Positions 1,575 through 18,464 of a DNA stretch of 47,026 nt are shown here, in pieces. The translations under genes were made by a program, and so were the position numbers. The stretch's first letter is position 1; each line of letters opens with the position of its first letter. A model generated the notes under the pieces. It did no database searches and was not told the origin of the DNA. It saw only the letters and a program-made list of their open reading frames with translations. Origin of the DNA: a virus (Duplodnaviria > Heunggongvirae > Uroviricota > Caudoviricetes); the IMG/VR virus record IMGVR_UViG_2534681936_000011; one strand, written 5' to 3'.

Positions 1575-4046
1575 TTAAAAATCAGCCTGATTCGGGAGCA
1601 GTTTTTGCCAGATAGTTGAAACGTATTTTGCCTGGTAACGGGCATCATCCAGCGCATTGTGGCGCTCACCTTCGAATGGGATAGCAGTTCTGGCATCGAA
1701 GTCTACGGCTTTCCCCAGCTCAACGATTGTGCGTACATCGCGATCGTTGCAGTAGCGCCACGGGCAGGGGATACCCTGTCGTTCGTATGAACGGCGCAAA
1801 ATAGTGTTGTCGAAGTTGGCCCCATTACCCCAGACCTGAACAAAAAACTCACCGGAGTTTTCGTCGATAAATTCCCGCAATTGCAGTAGTGCATCATCTA
1901 ACGGGATTTCATCGGTCATAATGGCAGACTGCGCTTCACGTGATTGCTTCAGCCACCATTTAATGACGTCACGATCAATGACTCCGCCAGCAGTATCCAG
2001 ATCGATGGTCTTGCTAAATTCTGGTCCCATATCTCCGGTTTGCGGATCGAAAAATATTGCGCCTATTGAGATAATCGGGGCATCGGGATTTTTTCCCATG
2101 GTTTCAAGGTCGATCATCAGATGAATCCCCGCTCTGCTGGTGGATGTGAGATTATGATGACTGTTCGCCTTAATTAAGGGATCTGACGCCTCGCCAGTTT
2201 CACTATCGCTGGCATGATGCTGATTGCCGCCAGTGTTCTCCTTGTGCTGATGTGCAGTACCTTCCATTTCCTCCGGATCATTTTCCTGAACTTCAGGCTG
2301 ATTCTCTTCATCGAATATTTCCTGGTATGTTGCGTCGCCCATCACCGCGCCACAATCAGGGCAGTTGCCGCCGCCGGTCTGACCGCAGGCGGTGCAGACT
2401 TTTTCCACTTCCTGTTGCGCCACTGGTTCAGGCTGTTTCGTTTCTGGCTCGTTTTGTAACGCATTTGGGCTGTTTTGTTCCGCTTTCTGGTCGTTCTGTT
2501 CCGTTTCTTGCTGGTTCTGGTTCACAGAATCGCGGGTTTCAATCCCCTTCACCCATTTCGGATCATTCGGGTCGCTAATCCCTGCAACAAATTCACCACG
2601 TGATGCGGCGAGCAACTGATTGGCGTCAGGCTGGCTGATATTGGCTGCCTGCATAATTTTCTTTACTTCGTCAGCGGTAACTTTTACCGGTTCTGGTTGT
2701 TCAGAATTTTGTGCGGTATTTGCATTTTGCGGTAAGCCTGTGTATGTGCCATTTTTTCGGGCAAAATATTCTTCTTTTGTGATTTCAGTAGCCCCGGCAG
2801 CCAGCGCCTTATCCAGACCAGAAAGTTTGTTTGCGCGACCGTATTTTTCGCAATCCTTGTCGGTGAAGAGGAAGTAGAACGGCCCCTCACGCTCTACAGA
2901 TGGTTCGACTTCCACTTTGCATTCGGTTTTTTCGTTGTCCGGAATTGCCGTTTCCACTGCATCAGTTTCTGGTACTGGCGACGAGAGAGTGTCAGTTGCG
3001 CTCTGATTTGTTCCTTCATCTTCAAACACGCCCTTTGTAGTCAGGTATTCAGTAATGTATTTGTTCAGTGCCACAGGGTCTTTGTGAATGTCGATCGGAC
3101 GTTCACGGACAAGGCCAAAAATAGTCTGGCGGTCGTAGCGAAGGGCATCAGGCTGTTTGCGCATTGATGCCGAGATACGCTTCCAGTCTTCGCGGTCGTT
3201 GTCGATAACTTCATTTTTTGCCCAGCGATGGATGCTGCCGTCAATGTTTCCGGCATCCACATCACCAGGCCAGAGAGCGTAGGCCAGTTCGTCATCCAGT
3301 GTTTTCCATGTCTGCTTATATTCGCGACGAATGACTGCAGTGACAGGGGGGATTTTTTCTGCTGAGTTTTCAGTGTGCTGTCGGTGGACTCTGGCGCGGG
3401 CGAGATCAACAACAGACGTGTATTTTCCGGTTTCCTTGCGTTCACCTTCGCGACGTTTTTTCCAGATGCGCATTTCTGCCTGAATTTCGGGCCATTTGGC
3501 ACCAGGCTTACATTTATGCTTAACCCACCCGATGGCATGCAGCTTAAGCTCCGGATACATGGCGTTAACTTCTGGCATTTTCATCAACGCTTCAACGATA
3601 TGTCCGTCGAATGTTGCCATGTCTTCCTGCAACAATTCCTGCGCGCTAATCACCATATCAACGGTGATGTTTTCACATGTGTCGAACTTAACCATGACAG
3701 CGTTCTGTACTTCAGGGGCCAGCTTGTCAAAAGCGACGTTCATCGGATCTGATTCAGTCTCAACCGGGACAAAGGAAGCAGCCCCCTCATCCCAGCGGTT
3801 TTCCTGCATATATTCAGCATCCCAGGAATCGAGGGCAGGGCGGGGTATACCGGGTTTATCCTCGCAAACAAGAAATTTATAAGCGCAGTCCTGAGCAGCC
3901 GGATAATGCTCCAGGAATTGCCAGTGAAATTTTGCGCGGGCGCGACGTTCATCACCGGCTTCAATGGCAGTGGCTACAGCGACTGCACCTTCTTCCTTTA
4001 TTGCCTGTTCGTCCGGAATGGCGGCGCAAATAAAGACTTTACTCAT
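1575..4046 (-). CDS. Large phage exonuclease with C-terminal DnaQ-like DEDDh 3'-5' exonuclease domain
   Basis: 823 aa; C-terminal motifs MIDLETMG (Exo I) and HNALDDA (Exo III); central acidic Q/E-rich linker and a CxxC...CxxC zinc-ribbon-like motif (CTACGQTGGGNCPDCG). Sits where Qin ydfE lies; no recT/bet partner nearby. Confidence 0.7.
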   Translation of the reverse strand: MSKVFICAAIPDEQAIKEEGAVAVATAIEAGDERRARAKFHWQFLEHYPAAQDCAYKFLVCEDKPGIPRPALDSWDAEYMQENRWDEGAASFVPVETESDPMNVAFDKLAPEVQNAVMVKFDTCENITVDMVISAQELLQEDMATFDGHIVEALMKMPEVNAMYPELKLHAIGWVKHKCKPGAKWPEIQAEMRIWKKRREGERKETGKYTSVVDLARARVHRQHTENSAEKIPPVTAVIRREYKQTWKTLDDELAYALWPGDVDAGNIDGSIHRWAKNEVIDNDREDWKRISASMRKQPDALRYDRQTIFGLVRERPIDIHKDPVALNKYITEYLTTKGVFEDEGTNQSATDTLSSPVPETDAVETAIPDNEKTECKVEVEPSVEREGPFYFLFTDKDCEKYGRANKLSGLDKALAAGATEITKEEYFARKNGTYTGLPQNANTAQNSEQPEPVKVTADEVKKIMQAANISQPDANQLLAASRGEFVAGISDPNDPKWVKGIETRDSVNQNQQETEQNDQKAEQNSPNALQNEPETKQPEPVAQQEVEKVCTACGQTGGGNCPDCGAVMGDATYQEIFDEENQPEVQENDPEEMEGTAHQHKENTGGNQHHASDSETGEASDPLIKANSHHNLTSTSRAGIHLMIDLETMGKNPDAPIISIGAIFFDPQTGDMGPEFSKTIDLDTAGGVIDRDVIKWWLKQSREAQSAIMTDEIPLDDALLQLREFIDENSGEFFVQVWGNGANFDNTILRRSYERQGIPCPWRYCNDRDVRTIVELGKAVDFDARTAIPFEGERHNALDDARYQAKYVSTIWQKLLPNQADF

Positions 4047-5307: not shown

Positions 5308-5692
5308 TATCCACAGAGCCTAAAGTATGTGCATATGGATGTGCTATTATGCGCCCTCGCAGATTTGCATCATTTTCTAAATTCACTGAACGAAACAGGG
5401 CATCAACAAGGCTCTGTACAATGCAAAGGCAATCGAAGACTGTCGCCGTTTCTGTTTTGATTGATGAAAGAACATGGCCATTCACGCAAACAGAAATTAC
5501 CCGTTTATTAACATCGCTTTCCTGCTTTTGATTATCAGAACCATATAGCCCAGAAAAAGCATTGCGCACATTACGAACCATATTATCGATGGTTTCTTTT
5601 TCTGCGGTACTAAGGTCAAGAGTAGCCAGTTGTGAACGAACTATATTCGATGCCATTTCCTGTAATGGCGTTGGTAAATCTTTAAATTCCAT
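5285..5692 (-). CDS. Hypothetical early-left protein (135 aa)
   Basis: ORF with GAGG SD 8 nt upstream; no recognisable family. Confidence 0.5.
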   Translation of the reverse strand: MEFKDLPTPLQEMASNIVRSQLATLDLSTAEKETIDNMVRNVRNAFSGLYGSDNQKQESDVNKRVISVCVNGHVLSSIKTETATVFDCLCIVQSLVDALFRSVNLENDANLRGRIIAHPYAHTLGSVDIKDPTNL

Positions 5693-5714
5693 TATTAGCC
5701 TCGTTGGTTAGCTA

Positions 5715-5933
5715 TTAACGTGGGTATGTAATCATTCTGGCAATGCTTAATGCCGCTGCTTTTTCCAGATTGGTGATATCCTGCTCCAGAGCGGACAGAT
5801 TTTCAGCCTGCTTAGCCCTGGCTTCATTGGCCCATTTCAGGTCCTGCACCGCCTTAATTTTCTGGTGCATCCACTCATAAAGTTCATCATCGGTATAGTC
5901 TGGCGCGATGATGACGGGGTCTCGTTTCTGCAT
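5715..5933 (-). CDS. Hypothetical early-left protein (72 aa, coiled-coil-like)
   Basis: ORF in operon context between dicA and dicF; length matches the YdfC slot. Confidence 0.45.
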   Translation of the reverse strand: MQKRDPVIIAPDYTDDELYEWMHQKIKAVQDLKWANEARAKQAENLSALEQDITNLEKAAALSIARMITYPR

Positions 5934-6005
5934 GTCGGCTCCTTGTGGTTAGCGTTGCCTGCTTTTTAACCACATCAGGCGAGGTGGTATCCTCTGAGGG
6001 GTCTG

Positions 6006-6362
6006 TTACTCGAGAGGAAATTGGTTATGAATACAATCAAGTTTTCTTGCCCAGAATGTGGTGGCTAAGTCTTTGACACATCCTTTAAGCCGCAGGGCTC
6101 TGACAGTTTCGCGGGAGCCATCTGCAAAAATTGTGGTCACCTTGTAACTGAAGATGAGTCCTCGCAGTTCGATGACGAAATCGTTGACAATATCTTCGGT
6201 GCACTCACCAGAGACTTTCTGAAGTAAAGGCGCATACCGCTTAGTTACCGCTCTGATAACTCTTACCTGTCCGGCAATGGCGCTGATATCAATATAAAGC
6301 GCCATCGCTGTTTCTTTGCTGATCCCTGGACGCCTTCCATTCTGATGTTTGACTTCGCCCAC
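6006..6362 (-). CDS. Hypothetical early-left protein (up to 118 aa; start uncertain)
   Basis: First ORF downstream of the repressor on the same strand. Confidence 0.4.
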   Translation of the reverse strand: MGEVKHQNGRRPGISKETAMALYIDISAIAGQVRVIRAVTKRYAPLLQKVSGECTEDIVNDFVIELRGLIFSYKVTTIFADGSRETVRALRLKGCVKDLATTFWARKLDCIHNQFPLE

Positions 6363-6569
6363 TGAGAAATCCTCTGCTTCCCCTTAACGCCGGGTAGCGG
6401 AACTGTTTGCTGAGAACACCGTGCGGTGTCTTGATGAGTAGAATTTAGAATAGCCTAAGAGTTATGGTCAAGCTTTTTGTGTAGAAAAACCTAAGCTTCT
6501 TGATGTAAAAAACACAAGTATTTGAAAGTTTGTGCTTTTTATTACAGAGAGTTGCGAAAAAAAGGGGGG

Positions 6570-6977
6570 TTATTTATTTGCGCTTCTTTTGCGAGCTTTG
6601 AGTAGTTCTTCAAAAAGTTTGTTGAAATTCTCAACTCGAGCACGCATCTCTGACAACAGAGCCTTTTGCTCTGACTCAGGCAGTGCGTCGAACAGTTGAA
6701 GCAACTCTTTTTGATCTTCTGTCAGATTGACTGGCTGATTATCTGGGATCGGTTCGCCTGGTTGCTTATCTTCATCTCCAAAAAGAAGCCAAGTCGGCGA
6801 GCACTGAAGCGCCTGGCTCAGTGCGAATAATCTCTTCCCCGCTGGCTGTGTTTCATCTCTTTCCCATTGAGAAATTGTTACGTGAGCCACTTTGACCAGC
6901 TTACCTAATGCGGCCTGAGACAGTTTTAATTTTTTTCGCCTGTATAAGAGGCGAGCACCGAAGGTTTCGTTTTTCAT
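6570..6977 (-). CDS. dicA: DicA-like HTH (XRE-family) prophage repressor
   Basis: 135 aa; MKNETFGARLLYRRKKLKLSQAALGKLVKVAHVTISQWERDE... HTH; length and C-terminus (FNKLFEELLKARKR) match recalled DicA; divergent from a cro-like gene. Confidence 0.85.
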   Translation of the reverse strand: MKNETFGARLLYRRKKLKLSQAALGKLVKVAHVTISQWERDETQPAGKRLFALSQALQCSPTWLLFGDEDKQPGEPIPDNQPVNLTEDQKELLQLFDALPESEQKALLSEMRARVENFNKLFEELLKARKRSANK

Positions 6978-11811: not shown

Positions 11812-12003
11812 GCGAAAACGGTTTGCTGTAACGGCAGAGTTAAGTAGGATTGCTGCGGGTGCTTGAGGCTATCTGCCTCGGGCATGAACACCAACGGCAG
11901 ATAGATAAAAGCCCCACCCGACTATAAATCGAAGTGAGGCCCCTATATGCTCGTCACATATAGATTGCCTCTTACGGACCGAAAGGTCAAGGAGAAGCAG
12001 GCT

Positions 12004-12159
12004 ATGAAGCAGCAAAAGGCGATGTTAATCGCCCTGATCGTCATCTGTTTAACCGTCATAGTGACGGCACTGGTAACGAGGAAAGACCTCTGCGAGGTAC
12101 GAATCCGAACCGGCCAGACGGAGGTCGCTGTCTTCACAGCTTACGAACCTGAGGAGTAA
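12004..12159 (+). CDS. hok: Hok/Gef-family type I toxin
   Basis: 51 aa MKQQKAMLIALIVICLTVIVTALVTRKDLCEVRIRTGQTEVAVFTAYEPEE, a canonical Hok sequence; an in-frame upstream extension (from 11947) occupies the mok position. Confidence 0.8.
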   Translation: MKQQKAMLIALIVICLTVIVTALVTRKDLCEVRIRTGQTEVAVFTAYEPEE

Positions 12160-14043: not shown

Positions 14044-14409
14044 ATGACTGAACGGATAGAATTTGTTTTGCCTTACCCGCCGACGGTGAATACCTACTGG
14101 CGACGTCATGGCAATACGTATTTCATCTCGGAAGCCGGAAAGCGTTATCGCCGTGATGTGGCGCTAATTGTTCGCCAGCAGCGGCTGAAATTAAACCTGT
14201 CCGGAAGGCTGGTGATAAAGATTATTGCAGAGCCACCGGATAAGCGCCGTCGTGACCTGGACAATATCCTGAAAGCACCACTGGATGTGCTGACGCATGC
14301 CGGACTTCTCATAGACGACGAGCAGTTTGATGAAATCAATATTGTGCGCGGTCAGCTCGTTCCTGGTGGGCGGCTGGGGATAAAAATCACAGAACTGGAG
14401 TGCGCATGA
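14044..14409 (+). CDS. rusA: Holliday junction resolvase RusA
   Basis: 121 aa; ...PDKRRRDLDNILKAPLDVLTHAGLLIDDEQ... matches the recalled RusA signature ([23 protein letters not shown]). Confidence 0.85.
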   Translation: MTERIEFVLPYPPTVNTYWRRHGNTYFISEAGKRYRRDVALIVRQQRLKLNLSGRLVIKIIAEPPDKRRRDLDNILKAPLDVLTHAGLLIDDEQFDEINIVRGQLVPGGRLGIKITELECA

Positions 14410-15095
14410 ATAACCACTATTTACAGTTTGTGCGTGAGCAGCTCATTATCGCCACCGCTGATTTGAGTGGGGCAACAAAAGGTCAGCTTGAAGCCTGGCA
14501 GGAGAATGCCATGTTCGATACAGGGCGTTACAGGCGAAAAAAAATCCGGTACCGCGATGAAGTGACTGGAAAAATGATAACGCGGGATAATCCACCAATC
14601 CCGGGAAAGCAATCGCTGGCGAAGGTGACGTCAATTCCTCTGGTCAGTCCGGTTGAGTTTTCGACATCATCGTGGCGGCGGGCTGTTCTGTCTCTTGAAG
14701 AACATCATAAAGCCTGGTTGTTGTGGTGTTACAGCGGGAGTATTTGTTGGGAATATCAGATCGCGATAACACAGTGGGCGTGGAATGAATTTAATACTCA
14801 ATCCGGTACCAGAAAAATTGCTGGGAAAACGCAGGAACGCCTGAAAAAATTAATCTGGCTGGCGGCGCAGGCAGTAAAAGCAGAACTTTTTGGTGGGGAA
14901 GGTTATGAATATCAGGAGCTGGCATTACTGGCGGGAGTGACAACTAAAAACTGGTCCAAAACATTTACTCGTCACTGGGTTGCAATGAAACACATTTTTC
15001 ACCGACTGGATAGTGAGGCTTTATTATTTGTAATGAGAACACGTTCAAAACAAAAGGCGGCATTTTCAAAGCAAAGTGTTGCAAAAGTAGATTGA
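14406..15095 (+). CDS. Putative late-gene antiterminator (Q-like, QuuQ-type) by position
   Basis: ATG overlaps the rusA stop; about 229 aa; immediately upstream of a terminator and the tRNA/lysis region. Confidence 0.5.
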   Translation: MNNHYLQFVREQLIIATADLSGATKGQLEAWQENAMFDTGRYRRKKIRYRDEVTGKMITRDNPPIPGKQSLAKVTSIPLVSPVEFSTSSWRRAVLSLEEHHKAWLLWCYSGSICWEYQIAITQWAWNEFNTQSGTRKIAGKTQERLKKLIWLAAQAVKAELFGGEGYEYQELALLAGVTTKNWSKTFTRHWVAMKHIFHRLDSEALLFVMRTRSKQKAAFSKQSVAKVD

Positions 15096-15159
15096 AAGGC
15101 ATATATTTCATGCAAATCTGATATTTTGCCGATTTTGTACGTGATGGCAAAAGCAAACA

Positions 15160-15190
15160 AAACCCGCCCACAAGCGGGTTTTGTTGTGCC
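15160..15190 (+). terminator. tR'-like intrinsic terminator downstream of the Q-like gene
   Basis: CCCGC-CCACAA-GCGGG hairpin followed by TTTTGTTGTG. Confidence 0.45.
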
Positions 15191-15290
15191 ACTTATCTCG
15201 GATAGACATGGTGAATGCGCTGGTGGAGGAGATAAGGGTGATTTTTGTATGCTTGCAACATTGATTTCGTAACGTTATTATCCTGCGCCC

Positions 15291-15366
15291 GGCCCTTTAG
15301 CTCAGTGGTGAGAGCGAGCGACTCATAATCGCCAGGTCGCTGGTTCAAATCCAGCAAGGGCCACCA
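15291..15366 (+). tRNA. ileZ: tRNA-Ile (anticodon CAU, lysidine type, ileZ-like)
   Basis: Cloverleaf: acceptor GGCCCTT/AAGGGCC, D-arm GCTC...GAGC, anticodon loop CTCATAA, T-loop TTCAAAT, CCA end; close to the recalled E. coli ileX sequence. Confidence 0.85.
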
Positions 15367-15367
15367 A

Positions 15368-15443
15368 CCGCCACTAGCCATCAGGAAAGAGCGTCAACCC
15401 TTTAAGTTGAGTGTGCGAGGTTCGAGTCCCCGGTGGTGGTCCA
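15368..15443 (+). tRNA. tRNA-like element with degenerate D-arm; anticodon uncertain
   Basis: Acceptor CCGCCAC/GTGGTGG (one G-U), T-arm CGAGG-TTCGAGT-CCCCG, CCA end, anticodon stem TCAAC/GTTGA; loop CCTTTAA has C at position 33 and the D-stem is weak. Confidence 0.4.
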
Positions 15444-15456
15444 TTATCGGTATTCT

Positions 15457-15533
15457 GCGTTGTTAGCTCAGCAGGACAGAGCAATTGCCTTCTAAGCAAT
15501 CGGTCACTGGTTCGACTCCAGTACAACGCGCTA
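15457..15533 (+). tRNA. argO: tRNA-Arg (anticodon UCU, argO-like)
   Basis: Acceptor GCGTTGT/ACAACGC, D-arm TAGCTCAGCAGGACAGAGC, anticodon loop CTTCTAA, T-arm ACTGG-TTCGACT-CCAGT. Confidence 0.8.
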
Positions 15534-15702
15534 CACTTATTTTCCCGGCTCGCTTTTGCGGGCCTTTTTTGTATCTGCGCCACGCCCGGCGCATACCAAC
15601 CACAGAGCCTTTCGGGGGGGAGCTTACGGAGTGGTCAGTGTGACTTTCTCTGTGGGCAGATCGCTCCCGGGCGTTGGCTCACCCACCCAAAGGAACGTCA
15701 CG

Positions 15703-16135
15703 ATGTTTGGTATTTTTGGTAAAAAAAGCCCGCAGAGCGGCAACGGAAATTAAAAAGTTTGAAAAACGCGATCTGGCACAGGTGGTGATTAACGCCGCAT
15801 ACCTGGTGGCCTATGCAGATGGTGAATGTGAGGCTTCCTAGAAAGCGAAGATCGAACAGGTACTGCGTAATCAGCCTGCGCTGTCCGCGTTTACGTCAGA
15901 AATTAATGCGATTAGCGCAACCATTATCGGTCAGCTGGATACGAACTTTAAAACTGGTCGTCGTGCGGCGTTACGTGAGATCGAGGATGTGAAACACGAT
16001 ACGCGTGAAGCGGAAGATGTGCTGGATGTGGCGGTGGCCATTGCGGAGGCAGACGGCGAAATTGAGCCGGAAGAGCGCAAGGTGCTGGAAGAGATTGCCG
16101 GTGTTCTGGGTCTTCGTCTGGAGAATTACCTGTGA
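15703..16135 (+). pseudogene. TerB-domain gene disrupted by a frameshift in an A7 tract and an in-frame amber codon
   Basis: ATG 15703 with AAGGA SD; frame ends after 16 codons. Removing one A from A7 (15721-15727) joins it to ...VVINAAYLVAYADGECEAS-TAG(15839-15841)-KAKIEQVL...VAVAIAEADGEIEPEERKVLEEIAGVLGLRLENYL, with duplicated TerB-like ADGE...E motifs. Confidence 0.55.
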
Positions 16136-16299
16136 CGGTAAAACTGCGCCTGACTGTGGCTGCACTCCTGCTGTTTCTGGTGGTGATGGTGGATTTCACC
16201 AGCAGAATCATGTCGGTGCTGGCGGATGGGGGGCTGGTCTGCGGCATTATGGTATTGCTGTGGCCGGTGATAAAAAGAAACAGCCTGCATAATGCTTGA
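16132..16299 (+). CDS. Small hydrophobic (two-helix) membrane peptide, coupled to the TerB-like frame
   Basis: GTG overlaps the TerB-frame TGA (GTGA); 55 aa ...LRLTVAALLLFLVVMVDFTSRIMSVLADGGLVCGIMVLLWPVIKR...; intrinsic terminator-like hairpin and T8 at about 16500-16530. Confidence 0.35.
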   Translation: MTVKLRLTVAALLLFLVVMVDFTSRIMSVLADGGLVCGIMVLLWPVIKRNSLHNA

Positions 16300-16613
16300 T
16301 TTTTTTGTTTGCTGTTTATTAAAAACACTTCTGCATGGTGAATCCCCCTGTGCGGTGGGGCAATCAGCAAGAAGGAATATGGGGTAATCGCGGATTCAGG
16401 TGCTGATACTGAATTCACCGGGAGGCACCCGGCACCATGCTTTGCCACAAAAGTGTTATTTCTGTTTTTCTCAAACTATCATCGTTATCCCTTTATTTTC
16501 GGCTGCGCATGGCGCGGCCTTTTTTTTACGACCAGCCACTGGCAGATGGTCATCCTGTGATTTGATTCCGCTTCCGGCTTTTTAACTCTGTTCCTCTACA
16601 CGGGAGAAATTCG

Positions 16614-18464
16614 ATGTCGATTAAACATTACGATGTTATCAGGGCGGCGTCGCCGTCAGACCTTGCGGAAAAGCTGACACACAAACTGAAAGAGGGCTGG
16701 CAGCCATACGGCGGACCGGTTGCCATTACGCCGTACACACTGATGCAGGCGGTGGCTATTGAAGGAGAGCCACAGGTCGGCCCTTCATCTGAGCCGGATT
16801 GGTACTACGTCATCGTACTGGCCGGGCAGTCCAATGCAATGGCTTACGGTGAAGGGCTTCCGCTGCCGGATTCATACGATGCTCCGGATCCGCGCATTAA
16901 ACAGCTGGCGCGCCGCAGTACAGTGACGCCGGGTGGGGCTGCCTGCAGATATAACGATATTATTCCGGCTGACCACTGTCTGCATGATGTGCAGGATATG
17001 AGTACGCTGAATCATCCGAGGGCTGACCTGAGCAAAGGGCAGTACGGCTGTGTCGGTCAGGGTTTACATATTGCCAAAAAACTGCTCCCGTATATCCCGA
17101 ATAACGCGGGGATCCTGCTGGTACCATGCTGTCGTGGTGGTTCGGCATTTACCCAGGGCGCGGAGGGGACATTCAGCGAGTCCACGGGGGCCAGTCAGGA
17201 TTCGGCACGCTGGGGGGTGGGCAAGCCGTTATATCAGGATCTGATTTCCCGCACAAAAGCGGCATTGCAGAAAAATCCCAAAAACGTTCTGCTGGCCGTC
17301 TGCTGGATGCAGGGTGAGTTTGACATGAGCGCCGCCACCCACGCACAGCAACCTGCGCTGTTTACAGCCATGCTGACACAGTTTCGTGCTGACCTCTCCG
17401 TGTTTAACGCGCAGTGCCATGGTGGCAGTGCTGCAGATGTGCCGTGGGTTTGTGGTGACACGACGTATTACTGGAAAAATACATACGCTACCCAGTACGA
17501 CACCGTGTACGGCGGGTATAAAAACAGGGAGAGTGAGGGCGTTTATTTTGTGCCCTTCATGACAGACGGTAACGGCGTCAATACCGCCACTAACGCGCCG
17601 GCAGAAGATCCGGATATTCCGGCATCAGGATATTACGGTGCGGCATCGAGAACGAATGGAAACCAGGTATCATCAAACCGCCCGACACATTTCAGTTCAT
17701 GGGCGCGCAGGAGCATTATTCCGGATCGTCTGGCAACCGCTATTCTGAACGCAGCCGGGCGCACCTCAGCCTTCATCAGTGGTAAGGCACCGGAAATCAA
17801 ACCCTCGCCCGGCGGCAACACGCCATCGGGTCCGTCTGCAGATACGTCCGTTCGCACAATCTCCCTGCTGCCGGCAGCCGGAGAGGCTGCTGCGCAGGGC
17901 TGGAGCATTAAGGATGGCGGAATTCAGTTGTCAGATGGTGTATTTAAGATCACCAAGCAGAGCAATAAAACCTGGTCCCTGACGCATCCGGTGGATGACG
18001 CAATTACCCTGCTGACACAGGGCGGCAGACTGACCTGTAAGTTCCGCCTGTCAGGCGCACTGACCAACAATCAGTTCGGGCTGGGGATTTATCTGTATAC
18101 GGATGCTCCCGTTCCTGATGGTGTGGCGATGACGGGTACCGGTAATCCGTTCCTGATGTCGTACTTCACTCAGACCACTGACGGCAGAGTGAATCTGATG
18201 CATCACAGGAAAGCCGGAAACACGAAGCTGGGGGAGTTCGGCGATTACGGTAACGACTGGCAGACGCTGGAGCTGGTGTTCACCGCCGGCAGTGCCACGG
18301 TTACTCCGAAACTGAATGGAGTGGCTGGCCCGGCATTCCAGGTTATAAAAGACAGTCTGACACTGGGACTGAATGCGCTGACGCTGACGGATGTTACAAA
18401 AAATGCAGCGTATGGCGTTGAGATAGAAAGTCTGATGCTGGAGATAAATGCACCGGCAGCATAA
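16614..18464 (+). CDS. nanS-p: NanS-p-like sialate O-acetylesterase (N-terminal DUF1737, SASA-like esterase, C-terminal domain)
   Basis: 616 aa; N-terminus MSIKHYDVIRAASPSDLAEKL; esterase motif region LAGQSNAMAYGEG; same position as the esterase downstream of stx in Stx phages. Confidence 0.7.
   Translation: MSIKHYDVIRAASPSDLAEKLTHKLKEGWQPYGGPVAITPYTLMQAVAIEGEPQVGPSSEPDWYYVIVLAGQSNAMAYGEGLPLPDSYDAPDPRIKQLARRSTVTPGGAACRYNDIIPADHCLHDVQDMSTLNHPRADLSKGQYGCVGQGLHIAKKLLPYIPNNAGILLVPCCRGGSAFTQGAEGTFSESTGASQDSARWGVGKPLYQDLISRTKAALQKNPKNVLLAVCWMQGEFDMSAATHAQQPALFTAMLTQFRADLSVFNAQCHGGSAADVPWVCGDTTYYWKNTYATQYDTVYGGYKNRESEGVYFVPFMTDGNGVNTATNAPAEDPDIPASGYYGAASRTNGNQVSSNRPTHFSSWARRSIIPDRLATAILNAAGRTSAFISGKAPEIKPSPGGNTPSGPSADTSVRTISLLPAAGEAAAQGWSIKDGGIQLSDGVFKITKQSNKTWSLTHPVDDAITLLTQGGRLTCKFRLSGALTNNQFGLGIYLYTDAPVPDGVAMTGTGNPFLMSYFTQTTDGRVNLMHHRKAGNTKLGEFGDYGNDWQTLELVFTAGSATVTPKLNGVAGPAFQVIKDSLTLGLNALTLTDVTKNAAYGVEIESLMLEINAPAA

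What the first reader, a model, noticed from the sequence alone, without database searches (positions are those of the whole stretch)
15703..16530. Disrupted TerB-like gene plus coupled membrane peptide where Stx phages carry stxAB
Between the Q-proximal tRNA cluster and the NanS-p-like esterase, where Stx phages encode stxA/stxB, this prophage has a two-gene moron: a TerB-domain ORF overlapping (GTGA) a 55-aa two-helix membrane peptide, then a hairpin and T8 terminator. The TerB frame carries two lesions within 140 nt: one extra A in an A7 homopolymer (15721-15727) and an in-frame TAG (15839-15841). It could be a decaying cargo gene, a slippage-prone phase-variable gene, or a read error at the homopolymer. 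A TerB-plus-membrane-peptide pair at the highly expressed late-operon cargo site resembles stress-response or abortive-infection modules and is not a standard lambdoid gene.
Basis: partly seen in the sequence, partly recalled or inferred. Interest (0 to 1): 0.65.

Follow-up and report, generated by a model that had tools for sequence, protein, structure and literature searches.

The report
Broken tciA/tciB prophage cargo genes
This is an already annotated, broken copy of a common phage cargo gene pair (tciA, a TerB-like protein, plus tciB, a tiny membrane protein), followed by a known small-RNA gene, in the prophage slot where related phages carry Shiga toxin; it is ordinary.

Summary
The window matches E. 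coli O55:H7 genomes at 100% identity. Between the Q-proximal tRNAs and the NanS-p-like esterase lies a TerB-family gene (15703-16135). It has A7 where intact homologues have A6, and TAG where they have GAG (Glu46). It overlaps by GTGA an intact 55-aa two-helix DUF3927 gene (16132-16299).

The pair is not new. It is the lambdoid version of phage P1 tciA/tciB (PHROG 632 and 1470). RefSeq already flags tciA here as a pseudogene with an internal stop. Phage JLK-2012 carries an intact copy in the same slot.

Alignment to a Stx2c phage and to an empty-site phage shows that tciAB and stxAB are alternative inserts, bounded by the tRNA cluster and an STnc100-family sRNA gene (16304-16476). The hairpin and T8 (16501-16527) more likely terminate that sRNA.

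Both lesions are inherited, not read errors or phase variation. The exact A7 allele is in 554 complete E. coli records, against 8 for A6 on the same haplotype. The exact TAG allele is in 186. Other prophages in the same genomes often hold tciA copies with an intact N-terminal allele.

Verdict: a decaying, redundant cargo gene of a known family whose function has never been tested. Low interest.

The parts
15291..15531 (+). Q-proximal tRNA cluster forming the left flank of the cargo slot: tRNA-Ile2 (anticodon CAT) 15291-15366, a degenerate tRNA 15368-15443, and tRNA-Arg (TCT) 15457-15531.
   Evidence: ARAGORN. Rfam tRNA matches only for the first and third. PGAP annotates only Ile and Arg.
15547..15570 (+). 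Hairpin plus T-run just after tRNA-Arg. Homology with Stx phages and with the empty-site phage ends just beyond it (15568-15581).
   Evidence: Terminator scan; blastn boundaries.
15582..16318 (+). Cargo (moron) cassette tciA'-tciB. Stx2c phage 2851 carries stx2A/stx2B in place of this segment, and phage phi296 has only about 80 bp here.
   Evidence: blastn of window 15000-17000 against L007 and L006, with annotations.
15703..16135 (+). tciA pseudogene (TerB family). The ancestral 143-codon frame carries two lesions.
   Evidence: Repaired translation. Pfam TerB 57.8 bits. PHROG 632 matched 1-143 of 143. PDB 2JXU E=3.7e-7. Intact 143-aa homologues at 97% identity. PGAP pseudogene 'internal stop'.
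15721..15727 (+). A7 tract, one A more than the A6 of intact copies. It puts the ancestral ATG (15703) out of frame. The TerB frame is then reachable only from TTG 15707.
   Evidence: Alignment with JLK-2012 and Evi. Exact A7 67-mer in 554 complete E. coli records against 8 for A6 on the same haplotype.
15839..15841 (+). In-frame amber codon TAG replacing GAG (Glu46), the last residue of the first ADGxxxxxE motif of the TerB domain.
   Evidence: Exact TAG 61-mer in 186 complete E. coli records. Glu is conserved at this position in homologues and aligns with Glu of KP-TerB.
16132..16299 (+). tciB: an intact 55-aa two-helix membrane protein (DUF3927). Its GTG start overlaps the tciA stop (GTGA), and it has its own GGAG (16120-16123) 8 nt upstream.
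   Evidence: Pfam DUF3927 58.6 bits. PHROG 1470 'TciB-like'. Alignment to P1 TciB and hydropathy profile. RefSeq WP_000216644.1.
16304..16476 (+). STnc100-family sRNA gene (Rfam RF02076), the constant right flank of the cargo slot.
   Evidence: cmscan 100.8 bits against a gathering score of 47, E about 1e-22. The same family sits at the same position in phages 2851, phi296, Evi and JLK-2012. Literature: PMC12370729, PMC12711010, PMC4104026.
16501..16527 (+). Intrinsic terminator (8-bp stem with 7 G-C pairs, 3-nt loop, T8). It most likely ends the STnc100-family sRNA and any read-through from tciAB.
   Evidence: The fold keeps this hairpin. The terminator stem of the Rfam model is deleted in the window copy, and this hairpin lies 25 nt downstream of the match. 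Among the features annotated under the match to window 16498-16900 in phage 434 is a 'terminator' (H99).
16614..18464 (+). NanS-p-like esterase (DUF1737 + SASA + DUF6645), the conserved ORF downstream of the slot. Listed as context.

Best explanation
The interval holds a phage cargo (moron) cassette in the Q-dependent late operon of a lambdoid prophage of E. coli O55:H7. It consists of tciA (a stand-alone TerB-fold protein) translationally overlapping tciB (a 55-aa two-helix DUF3927 membrane protein). The pair is homologous to tciA/tciB of phage P1. It is inserted between the Q-proximal tRNA cluster and an STnc100-family sRNA gene, in the slot where Stx phages carry stxAB.

In this copy tciA is dead. 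A GAG-to-TAG change truncates it at codon 46, inside the first ADGxxxxxE motif. An extra A in an A6 tract separates the ancestral, well-spaced ATG from the TerB frame. Ribosomes starting at the ATG therefore make a 16-aa peptide. Starts at the poorly spaced TTG 15707 would yield at most 44 residues. No full-length TerB protein can be made.

tciB is intact and has its own Shine-Dalgarno sequence, so it may still be translated from the late transcript. That is inferred, not shown.

Both lesions are old, vertically and horizontally inherited alleles in EHEC/EPEC-type prophages. They are tolerated because tciAB is a non-essential accessory pair and these genomes usually hold further copies in other prophages.

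For the intact pair, the most likely mechanism (inference only) is that the acidic TerB-fold protein works at the cytoplasmic face of the inner membrane, tethered or regulated by TciB. This is analogous to the membrane-anchored TerB-like domain of DjlA, and to what I recall (from memory, not verified here) of TerB associating with TerC in ter operons. The phenotype it produces (envelope or stress protection of some kind) has never been tested.

The hairpin/T8 at 16501-16527 is primarily the terminator of the downstream sRNA.
For: Source and annotation:
- 100% identity over 1,074 nt to nine O55:H7 and related complete genomes.
- PGAP annotation there reads 'TerB family, pseudogene, internal stop' plus 'DUF3927 family protein'.

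Family:
- Pfam TerB and DUF3927 both score above their cut-offs.
- PHROG 632 aligns end to end (1-143 of 143) with the repaired frame; PHROG 1470 is 'TciB-like'.
- KP-TerB 2JXU, E=3.7e-7.
- P1/P7/D6 TciA at 51-52% identity, with tciB directly downstream.

Lesions:
- Intact 143-aa homologues begin MFGIFGKKARRAA... and have E at position 46.
- 35 of 80 IMG/VR loci carry the A6/GAG form, and 69 of 80 have both genes intact with the GTGA junction.

Slot:
- Flanks are shared with Stx2c phage 2851 and empty-site phage phi296.
- STnc100 lies to the right of the insert in all five contexts examined.
- Tree et al. 2014 describe exactly this architecture: moron CDS downstream of PR', then sRNAs, then a conserved ORF (PMC4104026).

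Inheritance and redundancy:
- Exact-allele counts are 554 (A7), 8 (A6), 186 (TAG) and 2 (GAG with the same flanks).
- Intact-type N-terminal alleles occur in 104 and 386 records, including genomes that also hold the A7 copy, such as E2865, E2863, E2855 and PV15-279.

Non-essentiality: P1 CRISPRi scores tciA, tciB and tciC as non-essential (PMC10695390). About half of one P1-like subgroup has lost the operon (PMC9603915).

Conserved pairing: TerB plus a DUF3927-type small ORF also occurs in an Erwinia jumbo phage, Salmonella N4-like SP-076, Pseudomonas phiK7B1, Pantoea LIET2 and Klebsiella 5 LV-2017.

DjlA analogy: NCBIfam DjlA matches residues 87-140.
Against: - No expression data were examined, so it is not shown that tciB or the sRNA is made from this copy.
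- A7 alleles without the TAG are annotated by NCBI as intact 142-144-aa proteins starting at TTG (P0010, P0015). The A7 change alone may therefore only weaken expression rather than abolish it.
- The proposed biochemical role of TciA/TciB rests on homology and gene order only. [quoted passage not shown]
- The exact-allele counts take only the best place per record and only exact haplotypes, so they are lower bounds and not a census of intact versus broken copies.
Confidence: 0.88

Rival explanations
1. Phase-variable (contingency) gene: slipped-strand changes in the A tract switch TciA on and off.
For: The lesion lies in a homopolymer near the 5' end. Other N-terminal indel variants exist in E. 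coli copies: P0013 and P0032 have frame-shifted N-termini, and two IMG/VR loci have a 1-nt deletion at ATGTTTG-TATT.
Against: The tract is only 7 nt. On this haplotype the A7 form is in 554 complete records and A6 in 8, so it is essentially fixed rather than a mixture. The TAG is a substitution that slippage cannot reverse. Restoring the frame would need a +1 shift.
Confidence: 0.03
2. Sequencing or assembly artefact at the homopolymer and/or the stop codon.
For: Homopolymer indels are a typical error of some sequencing platforms.
Against: The 1,074-nt region is 100% identical in nine independently sequenced complete genomes, all or nearly all O55:H7. The exact A7 and TAG alleles recur in 554 and 186 complete records from many laboratories and serotypes. 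Protein databases hold hundreds of entries that reflect the same lesions: the P0088 cluster has 462 members starting just after the TAG, and MVFLVKK... forms reflect the A7.
Confidence: 0.01
3. The locus still provides a function despite the lesions. TciB alone, a 44-aa N-terminal TciA fragment, or the C-terminal 48-aa ORF from GTG 15989 may be the selected product. Loss of full-length TciA may even be advantageous in hosts with other copies.
For: tciB is intact with its own GGAG/GTG start in every TAG-bearing copy examined. The TAG allele has spread to 186 complete records of several serotypes. Truncated and N-terminally altered tciA forms are numerous in the databases.
Against: tciB is only 168 nt, so its survival after a recent tciA lesion is expected by chance. 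Spread of the allele can be hitch-hiking with a successful prophage. DUF3927 was found with TerB immediately upstream in every lineage checked, which argues that the two act together. No expression or phenotype data exist.
Confidence: 0.08
4. The intact pair is an anti-phage abortive-infection or superinfection-exclusion module, and this copy is a disabled one.
For: [quoted passage not shown] A cytoplasmic sensor plus a small membrane protein is a common layout for abortive-infection systems. The pair sits at a moron site.
Against: Neither protein has a meaningful PADLOC match: the best is E=0.007 over 35 residues to a candidate system. No terC, terD or other ter genes are nearby. Virulent phages (an N4-like Salmonella phage, jumbo Erwinia phages) carry the pair, which fits a role for the carrying phage better than classical prophage-encoded defence. 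No experiment has been reported.
Confidence: 0.1

Closest known systems
[quoted passage not shown]
   Same: Same two families in the same order and tightly packed: a TerB-family protein of 143-144 aa, then a DUF3927 protein of 54-55 aa. TciA is 52% identical. TciB aligns over 51 residues and shares the VDFTS..SVL.DG..V...WP..K motif. Both sit in a tRNA-gene region and both are accessory genes.
   Different: The host element is a lambdoid late-operon slot rather than a P1 plasmid-prophage. There is no tciC equivalent: the 31-aa ORF at 16292-16387 is unrelated. The junction is GTGA here and TAATG in P1. Here tciA is a pseudogene.
Intact tciA/tciB of Escherichia phage JLK-2012 (from O55:H7 DEC5E), phage Evi and PPyecE_EH1910
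   Same: Same slot (Q, tRNAs, tciA, tciB, STnc100, and in JLK-2012 and PPyecE_EH1910 an esterase, before the lysis genes). About 91% DNA identity and 95-98% protein identity.
   Different: Those copies have A6 and GAG and encode the full 143-aa protein. JLK-2012 has a different Q and different tRNAs (Asn, Thr, Gly). In Evi the lysis genes follow STnc100 directly, with no esterase annotated.
stxAB cargo of Stx phages (for example Stx2c phage 2851), and the 'moron CDS plus sRNAs' architecture of Tree et al. 2014
   Same: Identical insertion slot and flanks: the tRNA cluster on the left, STnc100/EcOnc27-type sRNA and the nanS-p-type ORF on the right. Expression is presumably from PR' under Q antitermination.
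   Different: The cargo is unrelated in sequence and function. No AgvB or AsxR-type convergent sRNA was detected on the minus strand here.
TerB of terZABCDE(F) tellurite-resistance operons (KP-TerB, PDB 2JXU)
   Same: Same fold family over essentially the whole length, with conserved acidic motifs.
   Different: This is a stand-alone phage gene without terC, terD, terZ or other ter partners. It pairs instead with DUF3927. Sequence similarity to KP-TerB is low.
STnc100 (Rfam RF02076) / EcOnc27 / PasD prophage sRNAs
   Same: Window 16304-16476 matches the full model above its gathering score. It lies directly upstream of the sialate esterase gene, as described for STnc100 downstream of stx2B and for PasD.
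   Different: The score is lower than in Stx phages (101 against 158 bits). There are internal deletions, and the model's own terminator stem is replaced by the 16501-16527 hairpin.

Membership tests
TerB family (Pfam PF05099) | Match to the family HMM above the curated gathering score | tested here: met
   57.8 bits against a cut-off of 24.4, residues 31-138 of the repaired protein.
TerB family (Pfam PF05099) | Full-length similarity to a solved TerB structure | tested here: met
   2JXU (KP-TerB), E=3.7e-7, query residues 15-137 against chain residues 21-144. No structure prediction was run.
TerB family (Pfam PF05099) | An open reading frame able to produce the domain | tested here: not met
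   TAG at codon 46 and the A7 shift. PGAP calls it a pseudogene. It is therefore a pseudogene of the family, not a functional member.
ter operon (terZABCDE) tellurite-resistance system | Presence of terC, terD or terZ partners next to terB | tested here: not met
   The neighbours are Q, tRNAs, DUF3927, an sRNA and an esterase. No other ter genes are annotated within about 4 kb on either side.
P1-type tciAB(C) module (PHROG 632 + PHROG 1470) | TerB-type TciA immediately followed by DUF3927-type TciB on the same strand | tested here: met
   PHROG 632 E=5e-69 (1-143 of 143) and PHROG 1470 E=7e-29. GTGA overlap. Pairwise alignment to P1 TciB.
P1-type tciAB(C) module (PHROG 632 + PHROG 1470) | A third small gene, tciC | tested here: not met
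   No similarity between the only candidate ORF (16292-16387) and P1 TciC. That ORF also runs into sequence shared with Stx phages.
P1-type tciAB(C) module (PHROG 632 + PHROG 1470) | [quoted passage not shown] | not testable with these tools
   The name is by analogy only. The papers read state that the function is untested.
DUF3927 (Pfam PF13064) | Match above the gathering score, with two hydrophobic helices | tested here: met
   58.6 bits against a cut-off of 25. Hydropathy maxima at residues 5-22 and 33-47.
STnc100 sRNA (Rfam RF02076) | Covariance-model match above the gathering score on the late-operon strand | tested here: met
   100.8 bits against 47, model positions 1-206. The same position is occupied in four related phages.
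STnc100 sRNA (Rfam RF02076) | Transcription as a discrete small RNA | not testable with these tools
   There are no transcript data for this strain. Hfq-bound EcOnc27 and RT-PCR detection were reported for homologous loci in other strains (PMC12711010, PMC12370729).
Known anti-phage defence systems (PADLOC-DB v2) | Match to a defence-system protein model | tested here: not met
   The only hit is a 13.5-bit, 35-residue match of TciA to candidate PDC-S48. TciB has none.
Phase-variable contingency locus | Tract-length polymorphism among close relatives that switches the frame | tested here: not met
   A7 in 554 records against A6 in 8 on the same haplotype. The second lesion is a substitution.

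The most novel reading that the evidence does not exclude
tciA may be recurrently inactivated in EHEC/EPEC lambdoid prophages while tciB is kept. That would imply either that TciB has a function of its own, or that full-length TciA is counter-selected in lysogens that already carry other copies. Separately, the repeated placement of tciAB inside tRNA-gene clusters of unrelated phages (P1-like, lambdoid, jumbo Erwinia, Klebsiella, Pseudomonas) could reflect a functional link with phage tRNA genes rather than a shared hot spot for accessory genes.
Probability: 0.08. Interest if true: 0.4.

Novelty: already known. Interest (0 to 1): 0.1.

Why it matters
It matters little as a discovery. RefSeq already marks the gene as a pseudogene, the family has been named since the P1 genome annotation, and the slot architecture (cargo CDS, then sRNAs, then a conserved ORF downstream of PR') has been published.

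Its modest value is as a clean illustration that stxAB and tciAB are interchangeable inserts between the same tRNA and sRNA flanks.

It is also a reminder that tciAB is a widespread phage gene pair with no experimentally tested function. It occurs in at least 14% of complete E. coli genomes and in many virulent and temperate phages. If anything deserves follow-up it is the intact pair, not this broken copy.

Tried and rejected
- **Amber-suppressor tRNA.** I checked whether the adjacent tRNA cluster could read the TAG. It cannot. The anticodons are CAT, TCT and a degenerate TTT-loop tRNA that fails the Rfam tRNA model.
- **tciC equivalent.** None was found downstream of tciB.
- **AgvB/AsxR-type convergent sRNAs.** None was found on the minus strand between tciB and the esterase at E<=1.
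- **Defence-system models.** PADLOC gave nothing meaningful.
- **A shared tRNA-tciAB block between P1 and JLK-2012 at the DNA level.** Only generic tRNA similarity and the tciA 3' half align.
- **P1 genome paper (PMC523184).** It is not held in the library, so the P1 annotation is cited through later papers.
- **IMG/VR loci.** The 80 returned were the best-scoring ones and so are biased towards intact copies. They cannot give the fraction of broken copies.
- **Allele-specific short queries.** They count only exact haplotypes and only the best place per record.
- **Structure prediction.** I did not run it. Sequence evidence for TerB membership was already decisive, and a model of a natural TciA-TciB fusion (P0007) would have had too shallow an alignment to be informative.
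Full report
**1. What is in the sequence**

The region was read directly and re-translated.
- An ATG at 15703 follows AAGGA (15690-15694) with an 8-nt spacer.
- Read from that ATG, the frame stops after 16 codons. Deleting one A from the A7 run at 15721-15727 opens a 143-codon frame. That frame is interrupted only by TAG at 15839-15841 and ends at TGA 16133-16135.
- GTG 16132 overlaps this stop (GTGA) and begins a 55-aa ORF ending at 16299. GGAG at 16120-16123 lies 8 nt upstream of the GTG. The ORF has two hydrophobic segments.
- An 8-bp G+C-rich hairpin with T8 lies at 16501-16527.
- Upstream are Q (14400-15095) and three ARAGORN tRNA calls at 15291-15531. Downstream is a 616-aa DUF1737/SASA/DUF6645 esterase.

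**2. Where the window comes from and what is already annotated**

The 1,074 nt from 15540 to 16613 are 100% identical to nine complete genomes, all or nearly all O55:H7 (CB9615, RM12579, the DEC5 series and others). They are at least 99.5% identical to many other STEC genomes.

In RefSeq the locus reads Q, tRNA-Ile, tRNA-Arg, 'tellurite resistance TerB family protein' (pseudogene, internal stop), 'DUF3927 family protein' (WP_000216644.1), then SASA family esterase, holin, lysozyme. Strains MBT-5 and O103 ML775 have the same arrangement.

PGAP starts the pseudogene at TTG 15707, which lies in the TerB frame. It therefore reports only the internal stop and no frameshift.

**3. Family**

The repaired protein matches:
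- Pfam TerB at 57.8 bits against a cut-off of 24.4;
- PHROG 632 'tellurite resistance' from end to end, 1-143 of 143, E=5e-69;
- the solved Klebsiella TerB structure 2JXU, E=3.7e-7 over residues 15-137.

The 55-aa protein matches Pfam DUF3927 at 58.6 bits against a cut-off of 25, and PHROG 1470 'TciB-like'.

In the phage collection the closest relatives are annotated tciA/tciB in phage JLK-2012, which was isolated from O55:H7 DEC5E. More distant relatives are tciA/tciB of P1, P7 and D6, at 51-52% identity.

P1 has the order tRNA-Asn, tRNA-Thr, one annotated ORF (two in the P1 gene table), tciA, tciB, tciC, tRNA-Ile, ban. P1 TciB aligns with the window protein over 51 residues, while P1 TciC has no counterpart here.

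[quoted passage not shown] The genes are non-essential in a P1 CRISPRi screen (PMC10695390). They lie in a variable region that about half of one P1-like subgroup has lost (PMC9603915). In D6-like plasmids they are regarded as untested morons 'in the tRNAs region' (PMC6799933).

**4. The lesions are real and inherited**

Intact 143-aa homologues at 95-97% identity begin MFGIFGKKARRAA... or MFGIFKKKTRRAA... and have Glu at position 46. Nucleotide alignment with JLK-2012 and Evi shows GGTAAAAAAGCC (A6) and GAG at the two sites. Glu46 is the last residue of the first of two ADGxxxxxE motifs, and it aligns with Glu in KP-TerB.

Exact-allele searches of 5,426 complete E. coli genomes gave these counts of records:

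| Allele queried | Records with an exact match |
|---|---|
| A7 67-mer (window type) | 554 |
| A6 on the same haplotype | 8 |
| TAG 61-mer (window type) | 186 |
| GAG with identical flanks | 2 |
| JLK-type intact N-terminal allele | 104 |
| Evi-type intact N-terminal allele | 386 |

Intact N-terminal alleles often occur in the same genomes that hold an A7 copy, for example E2865, E2863, E2855 and PV15-279. At least 777 genomes (14%) carry the gene, with a median of about 3 matching places per genome.

These counts exclude a read error. They also argue against phase variation: the tract is short and almost invariant on its haplotype, and the second lesion is a substitution.

A7 alleles without the TAG are annotated as intact proteins starting MVFLVKK... 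(P0010, P0015). The likely order of events is therefore A6 to A7 first, weakening expression, and GAG to TAG later, ending it. That order is inference.

No suppressor tRNA is present. The middle 'tRNA' has a CCTTTAA anticodon loop and a 1-nt D-arm deletion relative to the tRNA-Arg(TCG) of Stx phages, and it fails the Rfam tRNA model.

**5. The slot**

blastn of window 15000-17000 against Stx2c phage 2851 aligns 15241-15581 with the tRNA region and resumes at 16319. In phage 2851 the interval between holds stx2A and stx2B. Phage phi296 has the same flanks with only about 80 bp between them, so it is an empty site.

**6.

Rfam finds an STnc100-family sRNA (RF02076) at 16304-16476: 100.8 bits against a gathering score of 47, covering the full model. 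It begins 5 nt after the tciB stop codon.

The same family lies to the right of the insert in every context examined:
- 75 nt after stx2B in phage 2851;
- 104 nt after the last tRNA in phi296;
- 5 nt after tciB in Evi;
- 66 nt after tciB in JLK-2012.

This agrees with published descriptions:
- STnc100 lies 75 nt downstream of the stx2 operon (PMC12370729).
- It overlaps the Hfq-bound sRNA EcOnc27 (PMC12711010).
[quoted passage not shown] 2014, PMC4104026).
- A 2026 preprint places PasD/STnc100 directly upstream of the sialate esterase and lists TerB among the genes conserved near PasA/PasC.

In the window copy the Rfam model's own terminator stem is deleted. The next hairpin is the one at 16501-16527, and the minimum-energy fold keeps it. 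The features annotated under the phage 434 match to window 16498-16900 include a 'terminator' (H99). I therefore assign this terminator primarily to the sRNA, although it would also stop non-antiterminated read-through from tciAB.

**7. How the pair probably works when intact**

This section is inference. TerB followed at once by a DUF3927-type ORF of 46-59 aa recurs in very different phages:
- P1;
- the Erwinia jumbo phage ChrisDB, where the DUF3927 match is below the Pfam cut-off but RefSeq annotates the ORF as 'TciB-like';
- Salmonella N4-like SP-076 (45.7 bits);
- Pseudomonas phiK7B1 (29.4 bits);
- Pantoea LIET2 (27.4 bits);
- an unannotated ORF in Klebsiella phage 5 LV-2017.

In 69 of the 80 IMG/VR loci both genes are intact, with the GTGA overlap preserved. 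This conserved adjacency argues that the two proteins act together.

TciB has basic termini and two hydrophobic helices. TciA is a soluble acidic helical protein. TerB-like domains also occur next to a membrane anchor in DjlA; NCBIfam DjlA matches residues 87-140.

The most economical model is a TerB-fold protein held or regulated at the cytoplasmic face of the inner membrane by TciB. It would be expressed with the late operon, and possibly from the promoter-like site at 15253-15281 upstream of the tRNAs. What it achieves is unknown. Neither protein matches a known defence system.

In this window full-length TciA cannot be made, so any function needing it is lost. tciB keeps its own ribosome-binding site and may still be translated.

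**8. Verdict**

But the element is a RefSeq-annotated pseudogene of a named, widespread phage gene pair, sitting in a published slot architecture.

Novelty: already known. Interest: low (0.1).

Two residual questions remain. Are tciA losses recurrent and selected while tciB is kept? And does the repeated association of tciAB with phage tRNA clusters mean anything? tRNA genes lay within about 2 kb of tciA in 7 of 12 lineages sampled. I give that combined reading a probability of about 0.08.

Noticed in passing
window 15368-15443: The middle 'tRNA' of the Q-proximal cluster is degenerate. ARAGORN calls it tRNA-Lys(ttt), but it has C at position 33 and a 1-nt D-arm deletion relative to the tRNA-Arg(TCG) of Stx phages 2851 and phi296. 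It fails the Rfam tRNA model even at E<=1, and PGAP does not annotate it. Phage Evi has the same TTT loop but keeps the D-arm base and still passes Rfam (37 bits).
   Followed up: partly
window 15291-16299; L005 (P1) 1915-3785; L004 (JLK-2012) 5599-6593; L089 (Erwinia ChrisDB) 586-2814; L091 (Klebsiella 5 LV-2017) 738-1780; L095 (Pseudomonas phiK7B1) 552-1532; L092 (Vibrio K479) 35-2447: tciA(/tciB) lies within about 0.1-2 kb of tRNA genes in 7 of 12 phage lineages sampled, including unrelated virion types and different tRNA identities. The pair may simply share an accessory-gene hot spot with tRNAs. I know of no explanation.
   Followed up: partly
protein P0008, an E. coli TciA variant of the A7 haplotype: One database protein (MVFLVKK...EASWKAK...) has Trp (TGG) exactly where the window has TAG. 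It shares the neighbouring AQVV and ALYAF substitutions of the TAG lineage. This looks like a TAG-to-TGG pseudo-reversion that reopens the frame. It is a single sequence and could be an error.
   Followed up: no
proteins P0007 (197 aa) and P0062 (170 aa) (P0007 sequence): Database entries carry both TerB and DUF3927 in one protein. P0007, from E. coli O157:H7 PA11, is TciA fused in frame to TciB through changes at the GTGA junction. P0062 has both Pfam domains but was not inspected. These show that the two parts can occur as a single chain.
   Followed up: no
window 15100-15620, compared with phages PPompW_* and Stx2a-converting phage records (LC5678xx, H85-H95): These prophages are 100% identical to the window up to about 15620, and an IS110-family ISEc20 is among the features annotated under the match. 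An IS insertion between the tRNAs and tciA is my inference from where the identity stops.
   Followed up: no
window 16494-16637 (minus strand): PGAP annotates a fragmentary 'hypothetical protein' pseudogene antisense to the terminator and the esterase start. JLK-2012 has a similar minus-strand ORF annotation. Tree et al. place convergent sRNAs (AgvB/AsxR class) in this kind of interval, but Rfam finds none here.
   Followed up: partly
window 11857-12006 (+) and 40653-40775 (-): There are Rfam matches elsewhere in the prophage: sok antitoxin RNA (103.9 bits), next to the hokD gene annotated in CB9615, and isrC Hfq-binding RNA (150.2 bits).
   Followed up: no
L091 (Klebsiella phage 5 LV-2017), about 1620-1780: An unannotated TciB-like ORF (...LLFLVVAIDFTSKMMSILADGVLVAGVIALLWPLIKSSD) overlaps the end of the TerB gene, between a late antiterminator and the endolysin. 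This is the same slot logic in a Klebsiella lambdoid phage.
   Followed up: no
window 16232-16234 (TciB residue 34): The window's TciB has Gly (ADGGLV) where the other E. coli copies examined have Val (ADGVLV) and P1 has Ala. The change lies at the start of the second hydrophobic helix. Its significance is unknown.
   Followed up: no
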